62,955 bases of DNA from assembly GCA_009784425.1 (NCBI GenBank), contig WRBR01000002.1, positions 1 to 62,955 of the forward strand. The letters run 5' to 3'. The translations under genes were made by a program, and so were the position numbers. The DNA is from Coriobacteriia bacterium (GTDB lineage: Bacteria > Actinomycetota > Coriobacteriia > Coriobacteriales > UBA8131). Positions 751 to 62,955 of this stretch are shown here, piece after piece (the stretch's first letter is position 1; every line of letters begins with the position of its first letter). The notes below the pieces were generated by a model that was not told where the DNA came from, searched no databases, and saw only the letters and a list, made by a program, of their open reading frames with translations.

Positions 751-846
751 CTGTCACCCATATTGTCTGAGCAGTGCGCGAAGCCGAAGGACCCAGGTAG
801 TGAATCGCTGCCTGGGTCCTTCGGCTTCGTTTCGCTATGGGCGACA
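751..846. repeat. Family-A palindromic repeat (GTCATCCTGAGCGAAG type), degenerate copy
   Basis: CTGTCACCCA...GAAGCCGAAGGACCCAGG / CCTGGGTCCTTCGGCTTC...TGGGCGACA; resembles copies at 30651, 54594, 58672; lies between convergent genes. Confidence 0.75.
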
Positions 847-2634: not shown

Positions 2635-3528
2635 ATCTGTTAAGTACTCTACGGCGGAGAAGACGGCTATCTGTCCCTCGCCTACTGCTTTGGCTATTTG
2701 CATTGGCTTGCCGGTGCAGTCGCCGGCGGCGAATACTCCGCTGAGGTTTGTGTGCATGGTGGCGTCTACCTTAATAAAGCCGCTCTCGGTTTCAAGCGCG
2801 GGCAACATGCTGGTGGGGGCAACGCCGGGTCTGAGGACAAAGACTCCGTTAACCTCCAGCTGCACCTCCTTTGGCTTGGCACCGCTTGCGGCCTCTTCCT
2901 CGCTGGGGCGCTCGGAAATAACCACGCCGGTCACTCCCAGGGCGTCGCCTTCGATTGAGAGCAGGCGTCCGGCGTAAGTCTGCACACGCGAATCAAGGTC
3001 GGCCGGTATTTCCTTGGCCACCAGATGCACGGTTGCGCCAATCTCGGCCATGAAGTTGGCCTCTTCGGCAGCCTCGTCAGAAAGCCCCACTATCAATACC
3101 GTGGAATTGCGAAACAGCATGCCGTCGCAGGTGGCGCAGTAGCTGACTCCCCTGCCCAGATATTCTGCCTCGCCCTTGAAGGGCTTGCCGCCGCTTGCTG
3201 CCCCGCAGGCGATGATTATCGACTGGGCCTCAAGGGCATCGCCACTTGTGGAAACCAGGTATTTGTCCTGCAGGGGAAGGATGGTGAGAACCCGCGCTTC
3301 AAGAAACTCCACGCCCATCTTTTCTGCCTGCGTGTGCATGGTGTCAAGAAGGTGCATGCCGCTGACCGAGTGCATGCCGGGATAGTTATCCACTAGGTGC
3401 GCGGCAGCCAGGGGGCTGTGTTGTCTGTGGTTTGAGATGACCAGTACCTTTTTGTTGCGTGCCCGGGCGGTGATTGCAGCCGACAGCCCTGCCGGTCCGC
3501 CGCCAATGATGATGATGTCGTTGCTCAT
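2626..3528 (-). CDS. trxB: Thioredoxin-disulfide reductase family FAD oxidoreductase
   Basis: IIIIGGGPAGL FAD motif, GRGVSYCATCDG redox centre, GVFAAGD; GGAG RBS before ATG 3528. Confidence 0.85.
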   Translation of the reverse strand: MSNDIIIIGGGPAGLSAAITARARNKKVLVISNHRQHSPLAAAHLVDNYPGMHSVSGMHLLDTMHTQAEKMGVEFLEARVLTILPLQDKYLVSTSGDALEAQSIIIACGAASGGKPFKGEAEYLGRGVSYCATCDGMLFRNSTVLIVGLSDEAAEEANFMAEIGATVHLVAKEIPADLDSRVQTYAGRLLSIEGDALGVTGVVISERPSEEEAASGAKPKEVQLEVNGVFVLRPGVAPTSMLPALETESGFIKVDATMHTNLSGVFAAGDCTGKPMQIAKAVGEGQIAVFSAVEYLTDKN

Positions 3529-7353: not shown

Positions 7354-8119
7354 GATGTATCACTTCCTTTGCTAGGTCTCGATAGGCTTGTGCTCCCTTG
7401 CCTTTGTTGTCATAGGAGAGAATCGATTTACCAAAACTTGGCGCCTCTGCCAAACGAACAGTTCGAGGCACCATAGTTTCAAACACCTTGTCTCCAAAGT
7501 GCTCCTGCACTTCTGCCACCACTTGTTTGGCGAGCGAAGTGCGCGAGTCATACATGGTCATAAGCACGCCCATGATTTCTAAGTCTTTGTTTATGCGGGT
7601 TTTGACAATTTTTTCTGTTTCAAGTAGTTTTGTCAGTCCTTCCAATGCATAGAACTCGCACTGGATAGGTATTATCAAGTAGTTTGCTGCTGTAAGTCCG
7701 TTGATTGTAAGTTGTCCTAATGATGGAGGGCAGTCAACCAATATATAATCATAGTAACCACGTGTTGGTCGTAACAGCTCAGCCAATCTGTGCTCTCTGG
7801 CGTATTCATTCATCAGCTCAACTTCTGCCCCGGCGAGATTAATCGTAGCAGGCATGAGGTCTACCTTTTCAACTACTTGTCTTATTATGATGCTCTCAGC
7901 AGGAACCTCGTTAATCAAGCCATCATAAACGCACAGAAGCTCGCCTGCCTTTTCTACGCCAAAGCCACTGGTTGAGTTGCCTTGTGGGTCCAGATCAACT
8001 AACAGCACCGCCTTGCCTAGCTCGCCTAGTGCGGCAGCCAGGTTTACTGCTGTTGTTGATTTTCCTACGCCTCCCTTTTGATTGATTATTGTGATGATGA
8101 TTGCTTCTTTCGTTTCCAT
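7346..8119 (-). CDS. parA: Chromosome partitioning ATPase ParA/Soj
   Basis: NQKGGVGKSTT deviant Walker A, DLDPQGN, DCPPSLG, EAPSFG; overlaps the parB start. Confidence 0.97.
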   Translation of the reverse strand: METKEAIIITIINQKGGVGKSTTAVNLAAALGELGKAVLLVDLDPQGNSTSGFGVEKAGELLCVYDGLINEVPAESIIIRQVVEKVDLMPATINLAGAEVELMNEYAREHRLAELLRPTRGYYDYILVDCPPSLGQLTINGLTAANYLIIPIQCEFYALEGLTKLLETEKIVKTRINKDLEIMGVLMTMYDSRTSLAKQVVAEVQEHFGDKVFETMVPRTVRLAEAPSFGKSILSYDNKGKGAQAYRDLAKEVIHRG

Positions 8120-8361: not shown

Positions 8362-8451
8362 TGAGTTGGAACAGGAGGGACGGGGTTGGTGTACCACTTT
8401 TTGCCTCGGCAAAAAGTGGTACACCAACCCCGTCCCTCCTGTTCCAACTCA
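8362..8451. repeat. Family-B REPIN-like palindrome (GGGACGG-loop doublet)
   Basis: 44-bp perfect arms with a TC loop; includes the rsmG stop codon; nearly identical to the copy inside dnaX. Confidence 0.95.
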
Positions 8452-20197: not shown

Positions 20198-20304
20198 GGA
20201 CAAAAGGGGACGGTTCATCTGTCCCGCGGGACAGATGAACCGTCCCCTTTTGTCCCGTCCCCTTTTGTCCCGAATGGGACAGATGAACCGTCCCCTTTTG
20301 TCCC
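20198..20304. repeat. GGGGACGG-loop REP cluster (doublet + partial arm + third unit)
   Basis: Perfect 58-bp palindrome 20198-20255 of unit GGACAAAAGGGGACGGTTCATCTGTCCC, trailing CCCGTCCCCTTTTGTCCC, third unit at 20276-20304. Confidence 0.92.
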
Positions 20305-30646: not shown

Positions 30647-30650
30647 GCCT

Positions 30651-30748
30651 CTGTCATCCTGAGCGAAGCGCGCAGCGCGTAGCCGAAGGACCCAGTCAAC
30701 GCACTTACTGGATCCTTCGGCTCCGCTACGCCTCGCTCAGGATGACAG
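30651..30748. repeat. Family-A palindromic repeat, full doublet
   Basis: CTGTCATCCTGAGCGA...GAAGGACCCAGT / ACTGGATCCTTCGG...TCGCTCAGGATGACAG between convergent genes. Confidence 0.92.
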
Positions 30749-30752
30749 GGGG

Positions 30753-37712: not shown

Positions 37713-39506
37713 ATGACACTTTCTCTCTATAACAAATACCGCCCGCAGGTCTTCAAGGACGTGGTGGGGCAGGCCCATATTGAAAAAACGCTGGCCAACG
37801 CCGTGGAGAGCAACAAGGTCTCTCACGCTTATCTGTTCTGCGGCCCGCGGGGCACCGGCAAAACCACCACCGCGCGCATCCTCGCCAAGGCGCTGCTTTG
37901 CGTCAAGGCGCCCACGGCAACGCCTTGTGGCGTTTGCGAGCATTGCCTGGATATTGAGCGCTACCCGGTAGGCACCCACCCTGATGTGAAAGAGCTGGAT
38001 GCCGCGTCGCGCACCAGTGTTGACAACGTGCGCGAGGAGATAATCGATCGGGTCAGCTTTGCCCCCACTCAGGGTGCCTACAAGATATTCATTATCGACG
38101 AGGTCCACATGCTTTCTAAGTCGGCCTTCAACGCGCTGCTCAAGACTCTTGAGGAGCCGCCGTCGCACGTGATATTTGTACTCTGCACAACCGATGTCCA
38201 CAAGGTGCAGGACACTGTGCAGGCGCGCTGCCAACGCTTTGACTTCAAGCGGATTACCACAGAAGAGATTGTTGGCCGCCTGCAATACATTTGCGAGCGC
38301 GAGGGTTTTGACTTTGAGAAGTCTGCCCTTGAGCTTATTGCCGCCCGCTCCCAGGGAGGCATGCGCGATGCCATACGCTCGCTTGAGCAGGCTGCGGTCT
38401 TCAGCAGCGGCAAAATCACCTATGAAGCTGCGGAGAGTCTGCTCGGCATGGTAGACACCGAGCTTTTGTTCTTGCTTTGTGAACACCTTGCCGCCGGGGA
38501 TGCTGCAGCCTGTTTTGGTTGGGTCTCTGATTTTGTGCAAAGCGGCTCGGACGTAGCTATTTTGGTCAACGACCTTGCCACCCACGTGCGCAATCTCTAT
38601 GCAGTGCAGGTGGCAGGCGACGCAGGAGAAGAACATCTGGCGAGCGCCCTTGAAATCGATGCCGCGGTGCTTCCTCGCTTACGCAAACAGGCGCTGAGCT
38701 TTGGCACCTATGATCGGCTGGCTTGGATGCTTACGGTGCTGGGCTCGCTTTCGGCCGAGCTTAAGAATGCCGCCAACGCACGCCTGGCTTTGGAGATAGC
38801 GCTCACCCGCATGCTCTACCCTCAAAGCGAAACCAGCCTAAACGCCCTGGCAGCCCGGGTTGCTGCTTTGGAACAGAGGGACGGGGTTGGTGTACCACTT
38901 TTTGCCGAGGCAAAAAGTGGTACACCAACCCCGTCCCTCTGTTCCAAAGCAGCCCCGTCCCCTGAGCAAGCAGTCGCAGAGCCAGAGGTCACCCCAAACG
39001 AGCAGAACAACGCAAGCTTGCATCGCACCTGGAACAAGGCTCTTGACAGCATAAAGGAGCAGCGGCGAGGCGTAGCCGCACATCTCGGAGGAGTGCTGCC
39101 AGCGCTCAGCAAGGATGGCACCACTCTGATCCTCGAGTTGCCGGCAGAGGCAAGCACCTCCAAGCAATATCTGGAGTCAGAAACAAACGCCCCGCTCTTG
39201 AGAGAGGCGGCAGAAAAGGCTTTTGGAAAACCTCTGGTGATTAGGCTGACACTGGCTCAAGCAAGCCCCGGCTCCAAGCCCTCTGGCGAGGTGTTTGACA
39301 TCGATCCCTACGAAGAGCCCAGCCAGCCATCCGGCCTTGCGGTGCACGAAGAGCAGCGACCGGAGCCTGTTGAAGAGCCGTATAATGAATCCGGCGGCAT
39401 CGCCGGTGCTGAGCCCAACAATGAACCCAAAACAGAGCCCAGTAAAGAGGAGCTAGAGAATATTCTCAGCGCCAGTCTGGGCAGCCAGATACAATTTGAA
39501 GAATAG
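37713..39506 (+). CDS. dnaX: DNA polymerase III subunit gamma/tau
   Basis: YNKYRP, GPRGTGKTT, DEVHML, NALLKTLEEPP; carries an in-frame palindrome. Confidence 0.97.
   Translation: MTLSLYNKYRPQVFKDVVGQAHIEKTLANAVESNKVSHAYLFCGPRGTGKTTTARILAKALLCVKAPTATPCGVCEHCLDIERYPVGTHPDVKELDAASRTSVDNVREEIIDRVSFAPTQGAYKIFIIDEVHMLSKSAFNALLKTLEEPPSHVIFVLCTTDVHKVQDTVQARCQRFDFKRITTEEIVGRLQYICEREGFDFEKSALELIAARSQGGMRDAIRSLEQAAVFSSGKITYEAAESLLGMVDTELLFLLCEHLAAGDAAACFGWVSDFVQSGSDVAILVNDLATHVRNLYAVQVAGDAGEEHLASALEIDAAVLPRLRKQALSFGTYDRLAWMLTVLGSLSAELKNAANARLALEIALTRMLYPQSETSLNALAARVAALEQRDGVGVPLFAEAKSGTPTPSLCSKAAPSPEQAVAEPEVTPNEQNNASLHRTWNKALDSIKEQRRGVAAHLGGVLPALSKDGTTLILELPAEASTSKQYLESETNAPLLREAAEKAFGKPLVIRLTLAQASPGSKPSGEVFDIDPYEEPSQPSGLAVHEEQRPEPVEEPYNESGGIAGAEPNNEPKTEPSKEELENILSASLGSQIQFEE
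38862..38953. repeat. Family-B palindrome in frame inside dnaX
   Basis: 45-bp perfect arms, GA loop; encodes AALEQRDGVGVPLFAEAKSGTPTPSLCSKAA. Confidence 0.95.
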
Positions 39507-39858: not shown

Positions 39859-40464
39859 ATGTCTCAAGCTGCATCAATCCAAAAATTGTTGGCTGAGCTG
39901 GAGCGTCTTCCGGGCATTGGCCCCAAAAGCGCACAGCGCATCCTCTACTGGCTCCTCAACAACGAGCCGTCAGACACACAGCGCCTGGCTGCGGCGCTGG
40001 TTGAGGTGTCAGAAACCGTGCACTTTTGCGAGCGTTGCTTTAACTACGCCGAAGACGAACTCTGCCCGCTTTGCGCCTCAGCAGAAACCGGCCACCGCAA
40101 GGCCACGCAGATTTGCGTGGTAAGCGAGCCGCGAGACATCGTAGCCATAGAGCGCACCAACGAGTTTCACGGTGTCTACCACGTTTTGGGTGGGGCAATC
40201 TCTCCCATAGACGGCATTGGCCCGGAAGAGCTCAACGTGCGCCAACTGCTCGAGCGCCTCGCCGACGAAACCATAGAAGAAGTGGTGCTGGCAACCAACC
40301 CCAATGTAGAAGGAGAAACCACGGCGGTATATCTGGCTCGCCTCATCAAGCCACTCGGCATTACCACCACGCGCCTGGCAAGCGGCCTGCCCGTTGGAGG
40401 AGACCTGGAGTTTGCCGACGAGGTAACCCTCGGCAGAGCCATAGAAAGCCGCCACGAGATTTAG
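39859..40464 (+). CDS. recR: Recombination mediator RecR
   Basis: LPGIGPKSAQR, C4 zinc finger, ATNPNVEGETTA, GLPVGGDLEFAD. Confidence 0.97.
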   Translation: MSQAASIQKLLAELERLPGIGPKSAQRILYWLLNNEPSDTQRLAAALVEVSETVHFCERCFNYAEDELCPLCASAETGHRKATQICVVSEPRDIVAIERTNEFHGVYHVLGGAISPIDGIGPEELNVRQLLERLADETIEEVVLATNPNVEGETTAVYLARLIKPLGITTTRLASGLPVGGDLEFADEVTLGRAIESRHEI

Positions 40465-40475
40465 TGGCGTGGCAC

Positions 40476-40569
40476 AGAGAGGTGGTACAGGGGGGACGGG
40501 GTTAGTGTACCAATTTGGCCCAAGGGCCAAATTGGTACACTAACCCCGTCCCCCCTGTACCACCTCTCT
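40476..40569. repeat. Family-B palindrome downstream of recR
   Basis: 46-bp perfect arms, AA loop; followed by CCGTCCCCAGTGAG. Confidence 0.95.
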
Positions 40570-40609: not shown

Positions 40610-41710
40610 ATGACACTTTCCATTGGCATAGTAGGACTGCCCAACGTGGGCAAATCCACCTTGTTCACTGCTTTAACGAGCCAGGGCGGGCTTGCTACCG
40701 ATTACCCCTTTGCCTCCCTTGAGCCCAACGTGGGCGTGGTGCCCGTGCCCGACGACCGCCTGCAGGCATTGGCAGACATAGTAAACCCGGGGCGCATAGT
40801 ACCGGCCGCCGTAGAGTTTGTAGACATTGCCGGATTAGCCCGAGGTGCCAATGAGGGCGGCGGCATGGGCAACAAATTCCTGGCAAGCATTCGCGAGTGT
40901 GATGCCCTGATACAAGTGGTGCGCTACTTTGACAGCGACCACGTAACTCATTCAGAGGGCTCAATCAATCCTGAGAGAGACGTGGACATTCTCAACACCG
41001 AACTCATCCTGGCAGACATCGGCACCATTGAGAGAGCATTGCCGCGCCTCGACAAAGATGCCCGCCGAGACAAGGACGCCCTGCCCAAGCACAAGCTGGC
41101 AGGCCAGATGCTCAACTGGCTGAGCGAGGGCAACCGAGCCGCTGACTACGCCTTTAGCTCTCCGGAAGAGCGCAAGCTGCTCTGGGATCTACACCTGATT
41201 AGCATGAAACCCATGCTCTATGTAGCCAATATCAGCGAGGACGAGCTGTCTGGCACCGCTGCTCAGAGTGCGCCGACTGCTACGCTCCTGGGCAAGGAGC
41301 TTATTGTGGTCTCTGCAAAGATTGAAGCCGATATCACCGAGTTGGCCGCAGAAGACCCGGAAGCCGCAGCAGAGTTCATGCAGGAAACAGGGCTGAAAGA
41401 AGGCGGATTGGTGCGCCTGATACACGAGGCCTACAAACTGCTGGGACTTCAGTCATTCTTCACAGCCGGCGAGATGGAGGTCAAAGCCTGGACCATTCCC
41501 CTTGGGACCAAGGCACCTCAAGCCGCCGGCGTCATACATACCGACTTTGAAAAAGGCTTCATCAAAGCAGAAACCGCCGACTTTGCCAGTTACGTAGAAC
41601 ACGGGGGAGAGGCAGGACTCCGCGCCGTGGGCAAGCTTCGCCTTGAAGGCAAAGACTACGTAGTACAAGACGGCGACGTCATGCACTTCCGCTTCAGTAA
41701 ATCCAAATAG
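40610..41710 (+). CDS. ychF: Ribosome-binding ATPase YchF
   Basis: GIVGLPNVGKSTLF, DIAGL, APQAAGVIHTDFEKGFI, EGKDYVVQDGD; leaderless TGnTACCAT promoter. Confidence 0.96.
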   Translation: MTLSIGIVGLPNVGKSTLFTALTSQGGLATDYPFASLEPNVGVVPVPDDRLQALADIVNPGRIVPAAVEFVDIAGLARGANEGGGMGNKFLASIRECDALIQVVRYFDSDHVTHSEGSINPERDVDILNTELILADIGTIERALPRLDKDARRDKDALPKHKLAGQMLNWLSEGNRAADYAFSSPEERKLLWDLHLISMKPMLYVANISEDELSGTAAQSAPTATLLGKELIVVSAKIEADITELAAEDPEAAAEFMQETGLKEGGLVRLIHEAYKLLGLQSFFTAGEMEVKAWTIPLGTKAPQAAGVIHTDFEKGFIKAETADFASYVEHGGEAGLRAVGKLRLEGKDYVVQDGDVMHFRFSKSK

Positions 41711-49363: not shown

Positions 49364-49528
49364 GGGCAGGGGATAGTGACTCACTCGGTAGGCTCAGCTG
49401 TTTGGCTTCTGTCTTGGGGGTGAGCGACACGGTTAAGCTTCAAGCTAGTAAAGCTTGCTGGAGCGAACCGGGGCCCCTAGACAGAAACAAACAGCTGAGC
49501 CTACCGAGTGAGTCACTTTCCCCGGCCC
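49364..49528. repeat. Family-C long inverted-repeat element, copy 1
   Basis: AGTGACTCACTCGGTAGGCTCAGCTGTTT...AAACAGCTGAGCCTACCGAGTGAGTCACT; homologous and co-oriented with 51805-51990. Confidence 0.9.
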
Positions 49529-49539
49529 TCGGCCAGCTT

Positions 49540-51776
49540 TTAGAGCTTACTGGCTTTAAGCCGCAGCGCGTTGGTGAGCACCGAGAGCGAAGAGAGGCTC
49601 ATGGCTGCCGCTGCCAGCATGGGGCTCAGCAGGGGGCCGCCAAGGCGTAGAGCAAGCCGGCGGCAATGGGAATGCCCACCACGTTGTAGCCAAAAGCCCA
49701 AAAGAGGTTCTGCTTGATAGTGCGCATGGTTTTACGAGAGAGCTTTATGGCGGTAGGAACATCTTCAAGCGTGGAGTGCATCAACACAATGTCAGCGGAC
49801 TCTATGGCTACGTCGGTGCCGGCGCCAATGGCTATGCCAATGTTTGCCTGCACCAAGGCGGGGGCGTCATTGATGCCGTCTCCTACCATAGCAACTACCT
49901 TGCCGCTCTCTTGCAGGCGCTTGATTTCTGCGGCCTTGTCGCCCGGCAGCACCTCGGCCAGCACCGAGCTAATGCCTACACGCTCGGCAATCTCTCTGGC
50001 GGTGTCTGCGTTATCGCCGGTGAGCATGGTTGCCTCGATGCCCATCTCCTGCAGGTGTGCTACGGCGGCGGCACTGCTGGGCTTGAGCGTGTCGCGCACC
50101 AGAATCTGACCGGCGTACTCGTCGTTTACGTACACCTGCACACCGCGCCCAATAACCACCTTCTTGCCATCAACTACGCCCTCTACGCCTTGGCCGGGTT
50201 GTGCCTTGAAGTCTTCCACCGGCAGGTACTCCCCTTCATAGGCTGCAACCACAGCCTTGGCAATAGGATGCTCAGAATAGCGCTCAAGAGAAGCAGCAAG
50301 CTGAAGCAGGGTGGAACAGGGGGACGGGGTTAGTGTTCCAATTTGGCCCTTGGGCCAAATTGGAACACTAACCCCGTCCCCCTGTTCCACGGAAACTACT
50401 TCTGGTTGTCCTTCGGTGATGGTGCCGGTTTTGTCGAGCACTACTGTCTGGATCTTGCCGGCAGTCTCCAGAGCCTCGCCTCCCTTGATGAGGATCCCGA
50501 GCTCTGCGCCCTTGCCGGTGCCCACCATGATGGCAGTTGGCGTGGCAAGACCCAGAGCGCAGGGGCAGGCTATGACCAGCACGCTGATGAAAACAGTCAG
50601 GGCAAACTGCACGTCTCCCCCCGTTACGATGAGCCATAGAGCTCCAGCCAGCAGGGCTATACCGCAGACGATGGGCACAAAGATGCCCGCCACTACGTCA
50701 GCCAGTTTAGCAACGGGAGCTTTGCTGCCCTGGGCATCCTCAACCAGGCGGATAATCTGTGCCAGCGCCGTGTCTGCTCCCACCTTGGTTGCTTTGAAGG
50801 TCAGTGTGCCGGTTGTATTGAGTGAGGCTGCATACACCGTGCTGCCCACCTGCTTTTCCACGGGCATACTCTCCCCGGTAAGCATTGACTCGTCAAGGGC
50901 GCTGTGGCCACTTATCACCTCGCCGTCAACCGGAATAGACGCACCGGGCTTGATAAGAATGATGTCACCGGGCAGCACCTCGTCTACCGGAATCTCTCGC
51001 TCCTCTGTGTTGGAGCTGTCCTCAAGGGATGTAAACACCAGGGCCGTTTTTGGAGCCAAATCCATCAGAGCCATCAAGGCACCGGAGGTCTTGCCCTTGG
51101 CGCGTCCCTCAAGGTATTTACCCAGAAGCACCAAGGTGATAATGACACCGGCAGTTTCAAAGTAGAGAGATTCAACCGCCATATGATCGCCCATAACAAT
51201 GAGGGCCACGCTGTAAAGCGAGTAAAGAAAAGCAGCGCTGGTTCCAAGGGCAATAAGGCTGTCCATATTGGGACTCAAGCGCGCCAGGGAGGCAAAACCA
51301 ACCGTGTAAAAACGATACCCCACGCCAATTACCGGCAGCACCAAGGCCAACTGCGTGAGAGCATAGGCAAGCGAATGCTCCATAGGCTCGAGAAAGCTTG
51401 GAACAAGCACTGCAACGGGGCCACCCAACATTGGTGCCATAGCAAGGTAGAGCAAGGGCAAGGTAAAGCAGGCGGCAACAACAAACTTGAGCCAAAGCCT
51501 GCGCGCCTCCTCCTGTTTCTCAGCCTGCTTGGTACGAGAGGCGGCAAAGTCCTGTCTTGTGAGCGAGGCGCTAAAGCCTGTTTTATCCACGGCTGCAATC
51601 AAATCAGCCTCGGTCACTAACTCAGGGTCAAAGCGTATACCGGCCTTTTCCGTAGCAAGGTTAACGCTAGCCCTCTCAACACCTGCCAGAGCATTCAGCA
51701 CCTTCTCAACCCGCGAGCTACACGAGGCACAATGCATACCAGTGATATCAAGGTTTATGTAAGAAGTCTCCACCAT
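49540..51776 (-). pseudogene. copA: Cu(I)-translocating P1B-type ATPase with a 1-bp frameshift near the 3' end
   Basis: [42 protein letters not shown]; ORF stops at 49626 but the shifted frame continues [28 protein letters not shown] to TAA at 49540. Confidence 0.85.
50311..50390. repeat. Family-B palindrome in frame inside copA
   Basis: 39-bp perfect arms, TT loop; encodes [27 protein letters not shown]. Confidence 0.95.
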
Positions 51777-51804
51777 AACAACAGTATACTCCAGAGAGCC
51801 GGGT

Positions 51805-51990
51805 TGACTCACTGGGGACGGGGAAAGTGACTCACTCAGCAAGCTCGGCTGTTTGGCTTCTGTCTTGGGGGTGAGCGACTAGGCTAAGTTCCAAGCCTGC
51901 AAAAGCATGCTGGAGCGAGCCGGGGCCCCAAGACAGAAACAAATAGCCGAGCTTGCTGAGTGAGTCACTTTCCCCGTCCCCAGTGAGTCA
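51805..51990. repeat. Family-C long inverted-repeat element, copy 2, abutting the tRNA-Ser CCA end
   Basis: 46-bp perfect terminal inverted repeats TGACTCACTGGGGACGGGGAAAGTGACTCACTCAGCAAGCTCGGCT. Confidence 0.92.
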
Positions 51991-52338: not shown

Positions 52339-54603
52339 ATGCCAGAAAGTTCTGAGACAAAAGGAACCTTTGCGCGCCTGGCAGGTCTTGGCGCTTTTGC
52401 TCACCTGACGGGGCTTGGAAACATCTCTTTGCGCCTGGGGCAAAACAGAACCATCAGGGGAGTCACCGAAGGTCTCATCAATCTGGTGCCGCTTGTGCTC
52501 ATAGGCACAATTTGTTTGGCCTTAACCAATCTTCCTATACCGGCAATACACGTTTTCCTTAACAGCATCACCGGCAACCACTGGACGCTCATCTCGGACA
52601 TGATCGTCTTTTCCACAGAGCACATCATTGGCTTGGCGGCACTGCTGTCGGTTTCATATGTCCTTGCGGGGCAGAGCAACTCCATTCAAAAACGCGAAAT
52701 CAGCAGCTTTATCCCCATGTTCACGGCGTTTTCTTGTTACGTGGTCTTGTTGGTTTGGGATCCGGTGAGCTATGCCCTGGTTCCTGAAGGCCAACCTCCG
52801 GAGGTGCTGTTCACCAACGCGGGGCAAAGAGGGGTCTTCTTTGCCCTGTTTGTAGCGGTGGTGGCAACCAAGCTTTTTGCCCTGTTTACCAGGCTCTGGC
52901 AAAAGCTACCTTGGTTCAGGCGGCGCATTGTTGGCAGTTACATCCTGCTGCGCAACGCTCTGCACACTGCTGCCCCCATACTGCTTACCCTGACCTGCTT
53001 CATCGTGCTGAGAATGCTGCTGGATTGGCTGTTCAGCACAACAGAGGTCCAGGCTTATCTGGGCAACCTCATTGCCTCCTTGGTCAACGATGGTCGCCTC
53101 CCCTTTGTCGTCATCACCATTTTGATTATGCAGATACTCTGGTTTTTTGGAGCTCATGGTTCTTACACCATCCAGACCCTTATGCCACATGTTGACACTG
53201 CCGCCACCGGCAATACTGTGCAGGCTCTGGCGGCGGGTGCCCCTGGTCCTACCACCGTATTCACCAACTGGGACTTTTACAACATCTTCATCGAGATGGG
53301 AGGCGCCGGCACCACAATGGCGTTGCTCATAGCACTCTTGCTCTTTGGCTCCAAAGGAAGAGGAAAGCGTCTGGGGCGTATATCGATATTCCCCGTGACC
53401 TTTAACATCAACGAGACTCTGCTCTTTGGCATTCCCATAGTGTTCAACCCCCTGATGCTCATACCCTTCATTCTTGCCCCCGTGACCGTAGCTTGCGTGT
53501 CATTTGGGGCAATTAGCCTGGGGGTTGTGCCGCCCATAATCAACTCGGTGGAGTGGACTACACCCATCCTCTTTTCTGGGTATCTGGCAACAGACTCCTT
53601 TGCCGGGCCCTTGCTTCAGGCGCTTTGCATTGGGCTCGCATTTTTGATCTACGCACCCTTTGTGCTTGCCGTGAGAATTGCCACCGACCGCCACCAGCTC
53701 GAACTCTTTGAGCGCTTCAAGAAAGAGGCACAAAACGCCGCCAACAACGAAACGGTCTCAGTATCCGGCAGGCACGACGACATCGGCACCATGGCAAACC
53801 AGTTTATCACCGAAATCAGCATGTCTTTTAGCAGCAACAACATCCCCCTCTGCTTGATGTACCAGCCCAAAACCGATAACCAAGGGAGGGCCGCCGGGGC
53901 AGAGGCGCTGCTGCGCTGGATGCATCCCATGTTTGGCCCCATACCGCCGGATATCCTCGTTGAGCTAGCCGACGAGGCAGACTTTTCTGCACCTCTCGGC
54001 AGATGGATTGCCACAGAGGCGCTCGAAGAGTTTGCGCGCTGGCAACAAAGTGGGCTTGAGCAGCTGGTTCTTTCCATCAACCTCAACCCTCGCCATGTTT
54101 TCATTGACGAGGAGTTTCCGGAGTTCTTACAAAAAGAGATGGAACGCCTTGGTGTTGAGCCCGGCCTCATTGACCTGGAGATCACCGAGCACATGGCGGT
54201 GGGCGCCAGCAAGGAGATGCTACTGCTGTTTCAGCAGCTACGCAATCTGGGCGTCAGGCTTTCCATTGATGACATGGGGATGGGGTATAGCTCGCTTACC
54301 TATATCAGTGATTTTGGCGCGAGTGTCATCAAGATTGATATCTCGCTCATCGACCAGGTAGCCACCGATGTCAAGCAGCAAGAAATCGTGCGCTCAATAA
54401 TCGACTTAGCTCGGCAGATAAACCTAACGGTCATTGTAGAAGGCGTTGAAACACAGGAACAGGTCAACGTGCTTGCTGGCCTTGGGTGCAATTATTTCCA
54501 GGGATTCTTCTTCTCAAAACCGCTCAGCCCTCAAGACTTCCTCGCTTATGTTGATGCCCACGGCACCACATTGCTCTTGCATGAAGGAACCCAGTCATCC
54601 TGA
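52339..54603 (+). CDS. PTS EIIC (lactose/cellobiose type) - EAL phosphodiesterase fusion
   Basis: LWFFGAHG, MGGAG, FNINETLLFGIPIVFNP, WTTP; then YQPK, EALLRW, INL, LEITE, IDDMGMGYSS, VEGVET, QGFFFSKP. Confidence 0.9.
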   Translation: MPESSETKGTFARLAGLGAFAHLTGLGNISLRLGQNRTIRGVTEGLINLVPLVLIGTICLALTNLPIPAIHVFLNSITGNHWTLISDMIVFSTEHIIGLAALLSVSYVLAGQSNSIQKREISSFIPMFTAFSCYVVLLVWDPVSYALVPEGQPPEVLFTNAGQRGVFFALFVAVVATKLFALFTRLWQKLPWFRRRIVGSYILLRNALHTAAPILLTLTCFIVLRMLLDWLFSTTEVQAYLGNLIASLVNDGRLPFVVITILIMQILWFFGAHGSYTIQTLMPHVDTAATGNTVQALAAGAPGPTTVFTNWDFYNIFIEMGGAGTTMALLIALLLFGSKGRGKRLGRISIFPVTFNINETLLFGIPIVFNPLMLIPFILAPVTVACVSFGAISLGVVPPIINSVEWTTPILFSGYLATDSFAGPLLQALCIGLAFLIYAPFVLAVRIATDRHQLELFERFKKEAQNAANNETVSVSGRHDDIGTMANQFITEISMSFSSNNIPLCLMYQPKTDNQGRAAGAEALLRWMHPMFGPIPPDILVELADEADFSAPLGRWIATEALEEFARWQQSGLEQLVLSINLNPRHVFIDEEFPEFLQKEMERLGVEPGLIDLEITEHMAVGASKEMLLLFQQLRNLGVRLSIDDMGMGYSSLTYISDFGASVIKIDISLIDQVATDVKQQEIVRSIIDLARQINLTVIVEGVETQEQVNVLAGLGCNYFQGFFFSKPLSPQDFLAYVDAHGTTLLLHEGTQSS

Positions 54604-54694
54604 GCGAAGCGCGCAGCGCGTAGCCGAAGAACCCAAGCAGTGAGTCGCAGCCTAGGTCCTTCGACTACGCGCTGCGCGCTTCGCTCAGGATGAC
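54594..54694. repeat. Family-A palindromic repeat, full doublet
   Basis: GTCATCCTGAGCGAAGCGCGCAGCGCGTAG / CTACGCGCTGCGCGCTTCGCTCAGGATGAC; supplies the TGA stop of the EAL gene; between convergent genes. Confidence 0.93.
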
Positions 54695-62860: not shown

Positions 62861-62955
62861 GGGGACGGGGAAAGTGACTCACTGGGTGGAACAGGGGGAC
62901 GGGGTTAGTGTTCCAATTTGACCTTGGTCAAATTGGAACACTAACCCCGTCCCCC
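62861..62955. repeat. Family-C arm joined to a family-B palindrome, truncated by the window end
   Basis: GGGGACGGGGAAAGTGACTCACT then GTGGAACAGGGGGACGGGGTTAGTGTTCCAATTTGACC-TT-GGTCAAATTGGAACACTAACCCCGTCCCCC. Confidence 0.9.

What the first reader, a model, noticed from the sequence alone, without database searches (positions are those of the whole stretch)
38862..38969. 92-bp palindrome inserted in frame in the replication gene dnaX
Seen: the hairpin is nearly identical to the intergenic copy at 8362 (opposite orientation, one base shorter per arm) yet keeps the dnaX frame open and contributes about 30 aa (LEQRDGVGVPLFAEAKSGTPTPSLCSK) right after the collar domain. Established: Rickettsia palindromic elements add peptides to proteins in this way, and dnaX in several bacteria yields a short gamma product by recoding in this linker region. 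Inference: selfish palindromes are creating new protein sequence here, and the 45-bp mRNA stem could affect translation or the tau/gamma ratio.
Basis: partly seen in the sequence, partly recalled or inferred. Interest (0 to 1): 0.8.

Follow-up and report, generated by a model that had tools for sequence, protein, structure and literature searches.

The report
Mobile palindrome read inside dnaX
A perfect 92-base palindrome sitting in frame in the replication gene dnaX is one of about 200 copies of a small mobile hairpin repeat that has flooded this gut bacterium's genome and also sits, translated, inside many other housekeeping genes.

Summary
Window 38862-38953 is a perfect palindrome (45-nt arms, 2-nt centre) inside the 597-aa dnaX ORF, just after the collar domain. 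The frame stays open.

It is not a dnaX peculiarity. The genome (2.0 Mb, 146 contigs) holds 170 perfect palindromes and about 199 loci of this family. None of 30 relatives carries the family, apart from one imperfect hit.

Each arm is a small hairpin with a GGGGACGG loop motif. The genome's one intact IS200-like Y1 (HUH) transposase gene is flanked by inverted hairpins with the same motif. So are its homologues in the sister species, an Eggerthellaceae MAG and a Lachnospiraceae isolate. The best reading is a REPIN/RAYT-like (TIRYT-like) non-autonomous element.

Palindromes lie inside 21 long ORFs, including priA, pcrA, mfd, cysS, selB, rsgA and a P-type ATPase. Twenty of 24 copies enter in one reading frame.

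In DnaX the new peptide falls in a linker that AlphaFold2 models with low confidence. No frameshift signal supports the tau/gamma idea.

Intragenic REP and RPE repeats, notably in replication and repair genes, are already published. This is therefore a new lineage and variant, not a new principle. Still unexplained: the palindrome's outer arm codes invariant DnaX residues, and sister lineages carry related repeats or relics at the same sites.

The parts
37713..39506 (+). dnaX ORF (597 aa, DNA polymerase III gamma/tau)
   Evidence: ORF list. Pfam finds DNA_pol3_delta2, the lid and gamma3/domain III at 236-376. Orthologues are present in 31 of 31 genomes searched.
38862..38906 (+). Left arm of the perfect palindrome. 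It holds one hairpin unit, TGGAACA-[GAGGGACGGGGTTGG]-TGTACCA. Its first 18 nt code A384-R389.
   Evidence: L386 and E387 are invariant in 33 of 33 DnaX sequences.
38907..38908 (+). Non-palindromic centre GA (TC in the flipped copy at 8406-8407)
38909..38953 (+). Right arm, the exact reverse complement of the left arm
   Evidence: 100% complementary. The RNA fold of 38830-38990 gives -112 kcal/mol, z -14.5.
38953..38966 (+). Partial extra unit on the right side only (CCCCGTCCCC motif). The -1 frame stop TGA lies at 38963-38965.
   Evidence: Motif hit at G000:C2:38953-38963 on the minus strand. Flank listing. -1 frame translation.
8362..8451 (.). Near-identical intergenic sister copy (44-nt arms, centre TC)
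40476..40569 (.). Family copy (46-nt arms) between the ORF at 39859-40464 and the ORF at 40610-41710
50311..50390 (-). Family copy read in frame ([27 protein letters not shown]) inside the P-type ATPase ORF 49629-51842 (-), within its hydrolase domain
62894..62955 (.). Family copy cut by the end of the contig
   Evidence: 46 of 170 palindromes lie within 150 nt of a contig end.

Best explanation
The dnaX palindrome is one copy of a REPIN-like element, that is, two inverted hairpin units forming one long hairpin. It belongs to a non-autonomous repeat family that expanded in this species.

The likely mobiliser is the genome's one intact IS200-like Y1 (HUH) transposase, of the RAYT/TIRYT kind. 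That gene is flanked by inverted hairpins carrying the same GGGGACGG loop motif.

The copy landed in, or re-invaded, the variable and probably disordered linker between the clamp-loader collar (domain III) and the C-terminal domain of DnaX. It carries no stop codon and keeps the frame. It is therefore translated as a roughly 25-30-residue Gly/Pro/Ser/Thr-rich stretch that the protein tolerates.

Selection, not function, explains the pattern. Most copies are outside genes. The copies inside genes sit in linkers or loops and use the one least disruptive reading frame.

Shown: the anatomy, the family, its restriction to this species among the genomes searched, the translated copies in other genes, and the motif-bearing hairpins flanking the transposase gene.

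Inferred: that this enzyme moves family A, that the peptide is neutral, and when the insertion happened.
For: - Family size. The genome holds 170 perfect palindromes, 131 of them family A. The family has 405 half-sites in 199 loci. Of these, 153 contain a convergent (head-to-head) pair, 46 hold only same-strand half-sites (27 of them at contig ends), and none shows a divergent pair. The reversed-pattern control gave 0.
- Species restriction. 29 of 30 relatives have no hit; G003 has one 1-mismatch hit.
- Transposase. There is one intact Y1_Tnp gene, G000:C48:14443-15219, scoring 50.9 bits against a Pfam cut-off of 23. Upstream lies GGTGACAAGGGGACGGGGCGTTTGTCAAC. Downstream lies its inverted copy, cut by the contig end.
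- Same arrangement elsewhere. It is complete on both sides in sister species G005, whose gene is 87% identical. It is also complete in an Eggerthellaceae MAG at 74% identity, flanked by doublets on both sides. In Oribacterium sp. NK2B42 the gene is 40% identical and has perfect palindromes on both sides.
- Motif tracks the enzyme. AGGGGACGGGG is enriched over its control only in G000 (36 v 6), G005 (96 v 2) and G017 (14 v 2). These are the three genomes whose Y1 homologues are at least 71% identical. The 16-mer flanking the gene occurs 23 times in the genome.
- Other genes. Palindromes lie inside 21 long ORFs with at least 60 aa on each side. Pfam domains lie on both sides of the palindrome, or are interrupted by it, in priA, pcrA, the P-type ATPase, selB, cysS, a MiaB-like gene, a DUF512 radical-SAM gene, fumarase, rsgA and a Pyr_redox_2 gene.
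- Relatives lack the inserts. This holds for CysS in G005, G001 and G004, for PcrA in G005, and for RsgA in 4 of 4 same-genus genomes.
- Frame bias. 20 of 24 copies enter in the ..EQ(G/R)DGV.. frame (p = 6.6e-7). In the variant that is open in all three frames, the count is 12 of 15 (p = 2.9e-4). In 78 of 131 copies the other two frames carry stops.
- Tolerance in DnaX. AlphaFold2 models a helix at 375-391, pLDDT below 50 at 392-429, and a folded domain again from 431. The linker varies in length among relatives.
- Independent data. Both junctions appear in Logan contigs of public runs from two studies, at the depth of the flanking DNA.
Against: - The transposase is flanked by family D hairpins, not family A. 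The link to family A rests on a shared 10-nt motif and a shared hairpin layout.
- The NCBIfam model REP_Tyr_transpos scores 46.2 bits, below its cut-off of 80.
- The units carry no GTAG tag.
- G000 also has at least 5 truncated copies of the gene's C-terminal half. A classic single-copy domesticated RAYT would not show this.
- A simple insertion does not explain why the left outer arm codes invariant DnaX residues.
- A simple recent insertion also does not explain the related repeats at the same site in P0007 and G002, or the relics at the same sites in G002's PcrA and ATPase.
- No read or contig spans the whole hairpin.
- There are no expression or protein data.
Confidence: 0.78

Rival explanations
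1. The palindrome, or at least its outer part and its perfection, was made or renewed in place. Three routes are possible:
- Elements home into resident copies or into sites resembling their own sequence.
- A hairpin-templated (template-switch or rolling-hairpin-like) copying step writes one arm from the other.
- Gene conversion from other copies overwrites an old insert.

On this reading the dnaX insert is old, perhaps genus-wide, and keeps being rewritten.
For: - The left outer arm codes the invariant residues L386 and E387, and the right arm is their inverted copy.
- P0007, the closest DnaX, shares the RYP indel. It reads ..AALEAR followed by a related repeat peptide, GVGQGDGAG x2..APAPSLCPTP, at the same site.
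- G002's dnaX linker holds other small palindromic units. G003's linker holds GGGGACGGGGCTGG.
- G002 keeps relics at the same sites in two other genes: SPSPCS (CCCCGTCCCCCTGTTCCA) in the ATPase and LGPGDGAGVP in PcrA. G002 lacks both intact family A and a close Y1 gene; its best homologue is 40% identical.
- 59 of 101 internal copies carry extra partial units on one or both sides, always pointing inward; 0 of 101 point the wrong way. 43 of 131 have two or more units per perfect arm.
- The arms are 100% complementary even where copies differ from each other.
Against: - No empty site and no P0007 DNA could be obtained, so shared ancestry of the inserts is not shown.
- Independent hits at a hotspot, filtered by selection, could give the same picture.
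- In RsgA the element's first residues (VE) are not native-like, and 4 of 4 relatives lack any insert.
- The outer bases CTGCTT also occur in two other copies, C15:18946 and C1:10648. They may simply belong to a subfamily.
Confidence: 0.3
2. The hairpin has been recruited as a regulatory device in dnaX. It would act as a translational roadblock or recoding signal that sets a short (gamma-like) to long (tau) product ratio, or as an RNase III site.
For: - The RNA stem is very stable: -112 kcal/mol, z -14.5.
- The -1 frame ends at TGA 38963-38965, directly after the element.
- The position matches where gamma ends in E. coli. This is recalled knowledge, not a call result.
- An RNase III gene is present, G000:C3:40021-40407.
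Against: - No X XXY YYZ heptamer lies upstream of the stem (sequence).
- The T5 and A5 runs are inside the stem.
- The same element sits in about 20 unrelated genes and about 180 non-genic loci, so nothing about it is specific to dnaX.
- The close relatives G001 and G003 have no such hairpin.
Confidence: 0.05
3. The palindrome in dnaX is an assembly artefact: a repeat collapsed or mis-joined into the gene.
For: - 46 of 170 palindromes lie within 150 nt of contig ends.
- No Logan contig spans the hairpin.
- The genome is a fragmented assembly of 146 contigs, 86% complete.
Against: - A 649-nt contig runs from unique dnaX sequence 25 nt into the left arm. Contigs of 238 nt and 1574 nt run from the right arm into unique downstream dnaX. 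Both sides have the depth of the flanks (about 18-19x and 9x), and the runs come from two studies.
- The reading frame and the conserved C-terminal domain continue correctly after the insert.
- The same in-frame pattern appears in 21 ORFs.
Confidence: 0.03

Closest known systems
REP/REPIN-RAYT systems (Nunvar 2010; Bertels & Rainey 2011; Ton-Hoang 2012, as cited in PMC5581495, passages read)
   Same: - Short palindromic units arranged as inverted doublets that fold into one long hairpin.
- Hundreds of copies, mostly outside genes.
- A Y1 HUH transposase gene flanked by cognate units.
- Family sequence specific to the species.
   Different: - No GTAG tag. The conserved motif GGGGACGG sits in the loop of the small intra-arm hairpin.
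- The arms are 100% complementary with a 2-3-nt centre.
- Copies are stacked in inward-pointing layers.
- The host is Coriobacteriia, not Proteobacteria.
- The enzyme scores below the NCBIfam RAYT cut-off, and truncated extra copies of it exist.
TIRYT/TIRtron and TIR repeat families (Di Nocera et al. 2013, PMC3733652, passages read); Y1 subclass 2.1 with a C-terminal HTH (Quentin et al. 2018, PMC6006769, passages read)
   Same: - A RAYT-like gene flanked by inverted repeats at short, similar distances from the gene.
- Some published TIRs share the motif GGGGWSAS. GGGGACGG fits 7 of its 8 positions, and a few copies in this genome read GGGGACAG.
- The TIR repeats are dispersed as dimers and clusters.
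- The enzyme is longer than a plain IS200 transposase, with a C-terminal extension.
   Different: - The published TIR families are described as moderately abundant. In the passages I read they are not reported inside genes.
- Quentin et al. found no REP-like sequences near subclass 2.1 genes, whereas here the flanking hairpins are clear.
- Subclass membership could not be settled. The only C-terminal hit is HTH_50 at E = 0.084.
Rickettsia palindromic elements (RPE) and intragenic GTAG/CGTC REPs (Ogata 2000, as summarised in PMC10969869; Di Nocera 2013)
   Same: - Palindromic repeats inserted in frame in housekeeping genes.
- Dimers code 20-30 aa.
- Several genes are hit twice.
- Replication and repair genes are prominent. 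[quoted passage not shown] Here the hit genes include dnaX, priA, pcrA/uvrD, mfd and tatD.
   Different: - Different phylum and a different sequence family.
- RPE-1 elements are about 150 bp.
- CGTC elements were reported to lack a dedicated transposase, whereas here a Y1 gene is flanked by motif-bearing units.
- dnaX, priA and mfd are not mentioned in the main text of Di Nocera 2013. Its Additional file 3 could not be opened.
Programmed frameshifting or slippage in dnaX (E. coli, Thermus; recalled, not from a call)
   Same: - The hairpin lies just after domain III, where gamma ends.
- A -1 frame stop follows the element.
   Different: - No slippery heptamer lies upstream of the stem.
- The structure is a dispersed repeat, not conserved in relatives' dnaX.

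Membership tests
REPIN/REP-RAYT system | High-copy short palindromic units dispersed in the genome, well above chance | tested here: met
   405 half-sites in 199 loci, against 0 for the reversed-pattern control. 10 hits in the window against 0 expected.
REPIN/REP-RAYT system | Units arranged as inverted doublets that form one hairpin | tested here: met
   153 of 199 loci contain a convergent pair and none shows a divergent pair. Arms are 100% complementary. Fold of -112 kcal/mol.
REPIN/REP-RAYT system | A Y1 HUH transposase gene flanked by the same repeat family | tested here: inconclusive
   The gene is flanked by family D units that carry the shared GGGGACGGGG motif, not by family A units. 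The flanking 16-mer occurs 23 times. The Pfam Y1_Tnp hit is above its cut-off (50.9 v 23). The NCBIfam REP_Tyr_transpos hit is below its cut-off (46.2 v 80).
REPIN/REP-RAYT system | Conserved GTAG tetranucleotide at the 5' end of the unit | tested here: not met
   Unit sequences printed carry no terminal GTAG. The conserved element is GGGGACGG inside the small hairpin's loop.
REPIN/REP-RAYT system | Transposase present as a single copy | tested here: inconclusive
   There is one full-length gene, plus at least 5 truncated C-terminal-half copies with stops on C31 and C49. The genome is 86% complete.
TIRYT/TIRtron | A RAYT-like gene bounded by terminal inverted repeats | tested here: met
   Complete in G005, in L035 and in Oribacterium. 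In G000 the downstream repeat is cut by the contig end.
TIRYT/TIRtron | TIR motif GGGGWSAS (shared by some TIRs in Di Nocera 2013) | tested here: inconclusive
   GGGGACGG fits 7 of 8 positions. Exact fits (GGGGACAG) occur in a few palindromes of this genome, at C25:15201 and C28:2545.
Rickettsia palindromic elements | In-frame insertion in ORFs that adds a peptide without breaking the gene | tested here: met
   dnaX and 20 further long ORFs.
Rickettsia palindromic elements | Sequence membership in an RPE family | not tested
   No RPE sequence was available from a tool. The host is Coriobacteriia (record titles), so this is an analogy only.
dnaX programmed -1 frameshift cassette | Slippery heptamer 5-9 nt upstream of a stimulatory structure | tested here: not met
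   The sequence from about 38845 to 38861 (GGCAGCCCGGGTT) contains no X XXY YYZ in the dnaX frame.
dnaX programmed -1 frameshift cassette | Early stop in the -1 frame | tested here: met
   TGA at 38963-38965.

The most novel reading that the evidence does not exclude
The Y1 (HUH) enzyme does more than scatter these hairpins. It keeps rewriting them in place. New copies home into resident copies, or one arm is re-synthesised from the other in a rolling-hairpin-like step.

That process would produce the perfect arms, the flip/flop centres and the inward-pointing 'onion' layers. It would also produce fresh, species-specific palindromes at the same gene positions in sister species, and decayed relics where the enzyme has been lost.

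If so, linker segments of essential proteins such as DnaX, PcrA and a P-type ATPase are being overwritten again and again by a mobile element. The background is a bacterial family in which SbcD was found in only 2 of 18 genomes, and in 0 of 6 genomes of this genus.
Probability: 0.2. Interest if true: 0.8.

Novelty: new variant of a known kind. Interest (0 to 1): 0.55.

Why it matters
The case shows that REPIN-like elements driven by a Y1 transposase are not confined to Proteobacteria or to intergenic DNA. In an uncultured gut actinobacterium they have written 25-60-residue segments into replication, repair and translation proteins.

Three things make it useful:
- It gives a natural map of the sites where essential proteins tolerate insertions.
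- It links a Y1 transposase to motif-bearing hairpins in a clade where published surveys reported no REP-like sequences near the gene. That holds only if the enzyme belongs to that subclass, which is not settled here.
- It offers a tractable system for asking how perfect palindromes are made and kept. Intact copies, relics and an enzyme-bearing sister species sit side by side. SbcD was not found in the genus.

Practically, these repeats break short-read assemblies: 46 of 170 palindromes lie at contig ends. They can also fuse or extend ORF calls.

Tried and rejected
- Tau/gamma recoding. I looked for a slippery heptamer upstream of the stem and found none.
- Rfam. The search over 38600-39200 gave only sub-threshold matches to animal miRNA hairpin models, all below their gathering scores. 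I read these as generic hairpin hits.
- PDB sequence search with the Y1 protein: 0 hits.
- C-terminal HTH of the Y1 protein: only HTH_50 at E = 0.084.
- Expression: no RNA holder was listed among the 4 runs returned.
- Spanning reads: only Logan contigs could be laid, and none spans the hairpin.
- X2 left junction: in run X2 the part at 38808-38841 has no cover.
- Empty site or same-species variant:
  - The protein search returned only the window's own cluster at 100% identity. The next best are 79% or lower.
  - The single metagenome scan, made with P0007, did not return P0007's contig. Its 80 loci (L062-L141) were not used.
- Exact-pattern scan of genome contigs for the family A core:
  - Seven are single hits in unrelated phyla, which I take as chance.
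  - Only Oribacterium, with a paired hit, was followed up.
  - In Pseudobutyrivibrio, with a single unit, I looked at the neighbouring ORFs and searched its genome for a Y1 homologue; none was found.
- 'Target = TGGAAC-like native site'. This looked attractive for dnaX (LE), PcrA and the ATPase. The RsgA alignment does not support it, because the native residues there are unlike VE. I left it as an open idea.
- Capture of the dnaX flank by the element. This is weakened because CTGCTT also occurs in copies C15:18946 and C1:10648, which belong to different subfamilies.
- Literature:
  - The search for palindromic + Coriobacteriia + repeat + transposase gave 0 papers.
  - The motif-string search gave 129 papers. 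The 15 listed were all unrelated eukaryotic work, and I did not see the other 114.
  - I saw passages only, not whole texts, of PMC3733652, PMC5581495, PMC6006769 and PMC10969869.
Additional file 3 of PMC3733652, the list of intragenic REPs, may name dnaX-like cases that I could not see.
Full report
**The observation**

Window 38862-38953 is a perfect palindrome. Its arms, 38862-38906 and 38909-38953, are 45 nt long and 100% complementary, around a centre GA. It lies in the ORF 37713-39506 (+), 597 aa. Pfam finds DNA_pol3_delta2 (20-181), the ATPase lid (186-233) and gamma/tau domain III (236-376) in this ORF. The palindrome starts at codon 384 and is read as AALEQRDGVGVPLFAEAKSGTPTPSLCSKA.

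The intergenic copy at 8362-8451 has 44-nt arms, the flipped centre TC, and the same core with one 1-nt indel per arm. The 20-mer core occurs 10 times in the window at up to 3 mismatches, against 0 expected. As RNA, 38830-38990 folds at -112 kcal/mol, against -53 ± 4 for shuffles (z -14.5).

**A genome-wide family**

The window is contig C2 of a 2.0-Mb assembly with 146 contigs, 52.8% G+C and 86% completeness. A script found 170 perfect palindromes with arms of at least 18 nt and a centre of at most 3 nt. Of these, 131 belong to the dnaX family, called 'A' here, with core GGACGGGGTT[AG]GTGT[AT]CCA. Families B, C and D have 9, 3 and 3 members. The remaining 24 are 'other', several of them truncated family A copies.

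The family A core has 405 half-sites in 199 loci. Of the loci, 153 contain a convergent (head-to-head) pair. The other 46 hold only same-strand half-sites, and 27 of those lie at contig ends. No locus shows a divergent pair. Forty-six of the 170 palindromes lie within 150 nt of a contig end, so these repeats break the assembly.

Each arm is itself a small hairpin, TGG[AT]ACA-[G(G/A)GGGACGGGGTT(A/G)G]-TGT[AT]CCA. Families B, C and D have different stems but the same GGGGACG loop motif.

Layering is common:
- 43 of 131 copies have two or more units in each perfect arm.
- 59 of 101 internal copies carry extra partial units within 40 nt, always pointing inward (24 right only, 18 left only, 17 both).
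- None of the 101 carries a unit in the wrong polarity.

The dnaX copy has such a partial unit on its right side only, with CCCCGTCCCC at 38953-38962.

**Restriction to this species**

The family A pattern, allowing up to 1 mismatch, is absent from 29 of 30 relatives, five of which are in the same genus. G003 has one imperfect hit. Record titles of the nearest homologues place the organism in Coriobacteriia/Eggerthellaceae. The runs that hold the stretch are labelled termite gut metagenome.

**A candidate mobiliser**

G000 has one intact IS200-like Y1_Tnp gene, C48:14443-15219, 258 aa. It scores 50.9 bits against a Pfam cut-off of 23. The HUH motif (HVH) and the YIHQNP tyrosine are visible in the sequence printed. 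The NCBIfam RAYT model scores 46.2 bits, below its cut-off of 80.

The gene is preceded by GGTGACAAGGGGACGGGGCGTTTGTCAAC. It is followed by the inverted copy, which the contig end cuts. The same arrangement is complete in three other places:
- Sister species G005, where the gene is 87% identical.
- An Eggerthellaceae MAG, 74% identical, with doublets on both sides.
- Oribacterium sp. NK2B42, a Lachnospiraceae isolate, where a 40%-identical gene is flanked on both sides by perfect palindromes CCACCGGGGACGGTTCTCGCC|GGCGAGAACCGTCCCCGGTGG.

That Oribacterium genome also holds 46 GGGGACGGGGTT sites, against 0 for the control. One is a perfect palindrome with the same 21-nt core as family A.

Among the 31 genomes of the relatives set, AGGGGACGGGG exceeds its control clearly in only three: G000 (36 v 6), G005 (96 v 2) and G017 (14 v 2). 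These are the genomes whose Y1 homologues are 100%, 87% and 71% identical. The 16-mer flanking the gene occurs 23 times in G000.

This is the anatomy of a REP/REPIN-RAYT system or a TIRtron/TIRYT system. That this enzyme moves family A, rather than only family D, is an inference from the shared motif and hairpin layout.

**Other invaded genes**

Twenty-two ORFs have at least 60 aa on both sides of a palindrome; one of them holds an unrelated 41-nt palindrome. Pfam finds domains on both sides of the palindrome, or a domain interrupted by it, in these genes:
- priA (a second copy lies near its N-terminus)
- pcrA/uvrD (a second copy belongs to family B)
- the P-type ATPase in this window (palindrome 50311-50390, ORF 49629-51842 on the minus strand)
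- selB
- cysS
- a MiaB-like gene (two copies)
- a DUF512 radical-SAM gene
- fumarase
- rsgA
- a Pyr_redox_2 gene

Further copies lie in mfd, tatD, an ABC ATPase, an M20 peptidase, an aldolase_II gene and another radical-SAM gene. In three ORFs (amylase + GH77, aroE + aroK, HPPK + methylase) the palindrome may instead bridge two neighbouring genes.

Relatives lack the inserts:
- CysS: G005, G001 and G004.
- PcrA: G005.
- RsgA: 4 of 4 same-genus genomes.

**Reading-frame bias**

Twenty of 24 intragenic copies enter in one frame..(L/V)(E/V)Q(G/R)DGV(G/S)VP.. (p = 6.6e-7 against one third). Part of this is mechanical. In 78 of 131 copies (the TTAG variant) the other two frames carry TAG or TAA. 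In the variant that is open in all three frames, which includes the dnaX copy, the bias persists at 12 of 15 (p = 2.9e-4). The other frames code Trp/Cys/Phe-rich peptides. This fits purifying selection on what gets translated.

Only about 24 of 170 palindromes are intragenic. That is far fewer than random insertion would give in a genome that is mostly coding. The comparison is an inference, because I did not measure coding density.

**DnaX itself**

Alignments of 7 and of 33 DnaX sequences show conservation up to ..ALAARVAxLE, followed by a linker that varies in length and sequence, followed by a conserved C-terminal domain. AlphaFold2, run on the 33-sequence alignment, models a helix at 375-391, pLDDT below 50 for 392-429, and a confident domain again from 431. 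The new residues therefore sit in a probably disordered linker, which is a plausible reason for tolerance.

**The tau/gamma idea**

No X XXY YYZ heptamer precedes the stem. The T5 and A5 runs are inside the stem. The -1 frame does stop at TGA 38963-38965. The same element sits in some 20 other genes and is absent from the dnaX of G001 and G003. I find no support for a dnaX-specific role and give it 5%.

**What a simple insertion does not explain**

1. The left outer arm, GCT GCT TTG GAA, codes A384-E387. L386 and E387 are invariant in 33 of 33 DnaX sequences. The right arm carries the inverted copy of these bases.
2. The closest DnaX on record is P0007, a 431-aa partial sequence that shares a three-residue indel with G000. 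It reads ..RVAALEAR|GVGQGDGAGVGQGDGAGAPVWQRQTGAPAPSLCPTPAQ.., which is a related repeat peptide at the same site. G002's contig breaks 16 codons after LEARL inside another small palindromic repeat, and its continuation carries more units in frame. G003's linker contains GGGGACGGGGCTGG.
3. G002 has relics at the very sites where G000 has perfect copies..TCCCCGTCCCCCTGTTCCA.. (SPSPCS) in the ATPase and LGPGDGAGVP in PcrA. G002 has no intact family A copy, and its best Y1 homologue is only 40% identical.

Together with the inward layering and the always-perfect arms, this suggests one of three things. Old sites may be re-invaded or rewritten by homing into resident copies. One arm may be copied from the other through a hairpin template. 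Or gene conversion may homogenise copies. The alternative is a strongly preferred target combined with selection. I could not separate these possibilities, because no empty site and no P0007 DNA could be obtained.

**Assembly check**

Two runs from two studies hold 0.89 and 0.80 of the sampled words of 38400-39400. Logan contigs cover 38400-38886 (X1, 649 nt, depth 19.5), 38932-39169 (X1) and 38932-39400 (X2, 1574 nt). Both junctions between unique dnaX sequence and the arms are therefore seen at the depth of the flanking DNA.

No contig spans the hairpin. I attribute that to the short word length of these contigs, but this is my inference. Depth inside the palindrome rises to between 600 and 12,000, as expected for a repeat. 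One of these runs may be the window's own source, so this is not fully independent support.

**Comparison with published work**

Di Nocera et al. 2013 (passages read) already report:
- GTAG and CGTC REPs inside genes, with dimers coding 20-30 aa.
- RAYT-like 'TIRYT' genes flanked by TIRs, some with the motif GGGGWSAS.
- That CGTC repeats lack a dedicated transposase.

Quentin et al. 2018 describe a Y1 subclass with a C-terminal HTH for which no REP-like sequences were found. The 2024 MITE review summarises the in-frame RPE insertions of Rickettsia. Bertels et al. 2017 describe RAYT groups and the flanking-16-mer criterion.

The present case is thus a known kind of event in a new lineage and with a variant anatomy. 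The arms are perfect, the motif sits in the loop, the copies are layered, and sister lineages are occupied at the same sites. I found no paper on such repeats in Coriobacteriia (0 hits). The 15 listed of 129 papers containing the motif strings were unrelated, and I did not see the rest.

**Side observation**

SbcD (TIGR00619), whose complex cuts DNA hairpins in E. coli (recalled knowledge), was not found in G000 or in any of the 6 genomes of the genus. It was found in 2 of 18 genomes of the family and in 11 of 12 genomes from other families of the order. Many of these genomes are incomplete. The link to tolerance of palindromes up to 238 bp is a correlation only.

**Verdict**

- The 'selfish palindrome adds peptide' reading is supported and generalises to the whole genome.
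- The regulatory reading is not supported.
- Best explanation: a tolerated, translated REPIN/TIR-like element linked to a Y1 transposase (confidence 0.78).
- Novelty: a new variant of a known kind.
- Interest: 0.55.

Noticed in passing
window 49364-49528 and 51805-51990: Two family C doublets (GTGACTCA..GGGGACGGGGAAAG.. arms of 41-51 nt, 95-98% complementary, with 83-84-nt spacers) lie on either side of the P-type ATPase gene, which itself carries a family A copy.
   Followed up: no
window 20198-20303: Three arms of family B (GGACAAAAGGGGACGGTTCATCTGTCCC) form a zero-loop palindrome plus a third arm 50 nt away.
   Followed up: no
window 779-829, 30648-30751, 54594-54694; L013:181-215: An unrelated palindromic repeat family (GTCATCCTGAGCGAAGCG...) is also dispersed in the window. 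It also appears in frame in the dnaX linker of relative G002.
   Followed up: no
G000 C31:1467-1796, 2741-3073, 3076-3363, 7617-7946; C49:10028-10357: There are at least five truncated copies of the C-terminal half (aa 149-258) of the Y1 transposase gene. Four are 86-95% identical and one is a 67% partial copy; each carries stop codons. AGGGGACGGGG motifs lie nearby. They look like multiplied deletion derivatives of the transposase unit.
   Followed up: partly
G000 whole genome and relatives: SbcD (TIGR00619) was not found in 0 of 6 genomes of this genus. It was found in 2 of 18 genomes of the family and in 11 of 12 genomes from other families of the order. This may be a permissive background for long perfect palindromes (the longest here is 238 bp, C12:32250-32487).
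   Followed up: partly
L148:3209-3300 and L163 (Oribacterium sp. NK2B42): A Lachnospiraceae isolate carries perfect palindromes with the identical 21-nt family A core. It has 46 GGGGACGGGGTT sites. Its Y1 gene is flanked on both sides by GGGGACGGTTC palindromes. The motif-enzyme pair therefore crosses phyla.
   Followed up: partly
G000 C45:3-3146, C3:15359-16684, C12:31032-32288: Single long ORFs join alpha-amylase + GH77, shikimate dehydrogenase + shikimate kinase, and HPPK + a TP_methylase-family methyltransferase across a palindrome. These are either true fusions or neighbouring genes bridged by a stop-free repeat, which is a trap for gene callers.
   Followed up: no
L034:3-1280 (G000 C48) and L147:3009-7988: An RHS-type C-terminal fragment and a small ORF lie just upstream of the Y1 gene. 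A single family A-like unit in Pseudobutyrivibrio also sits beside an RHS/YD-repeat gene and small downstream ORFs.
   Followed up: no
L152 (G002:C7:2113-4350): The G002 orthologue of the P-type ATPase matches with one in-frame TGA inside the match.
   Followed up: no
window 38625 and 38975: Both public runs (X1, X2) read A instead of G at 38625 and T instead of C at 38975. The strains in those runs therefore differ slightly from the window.
   Followed up: no
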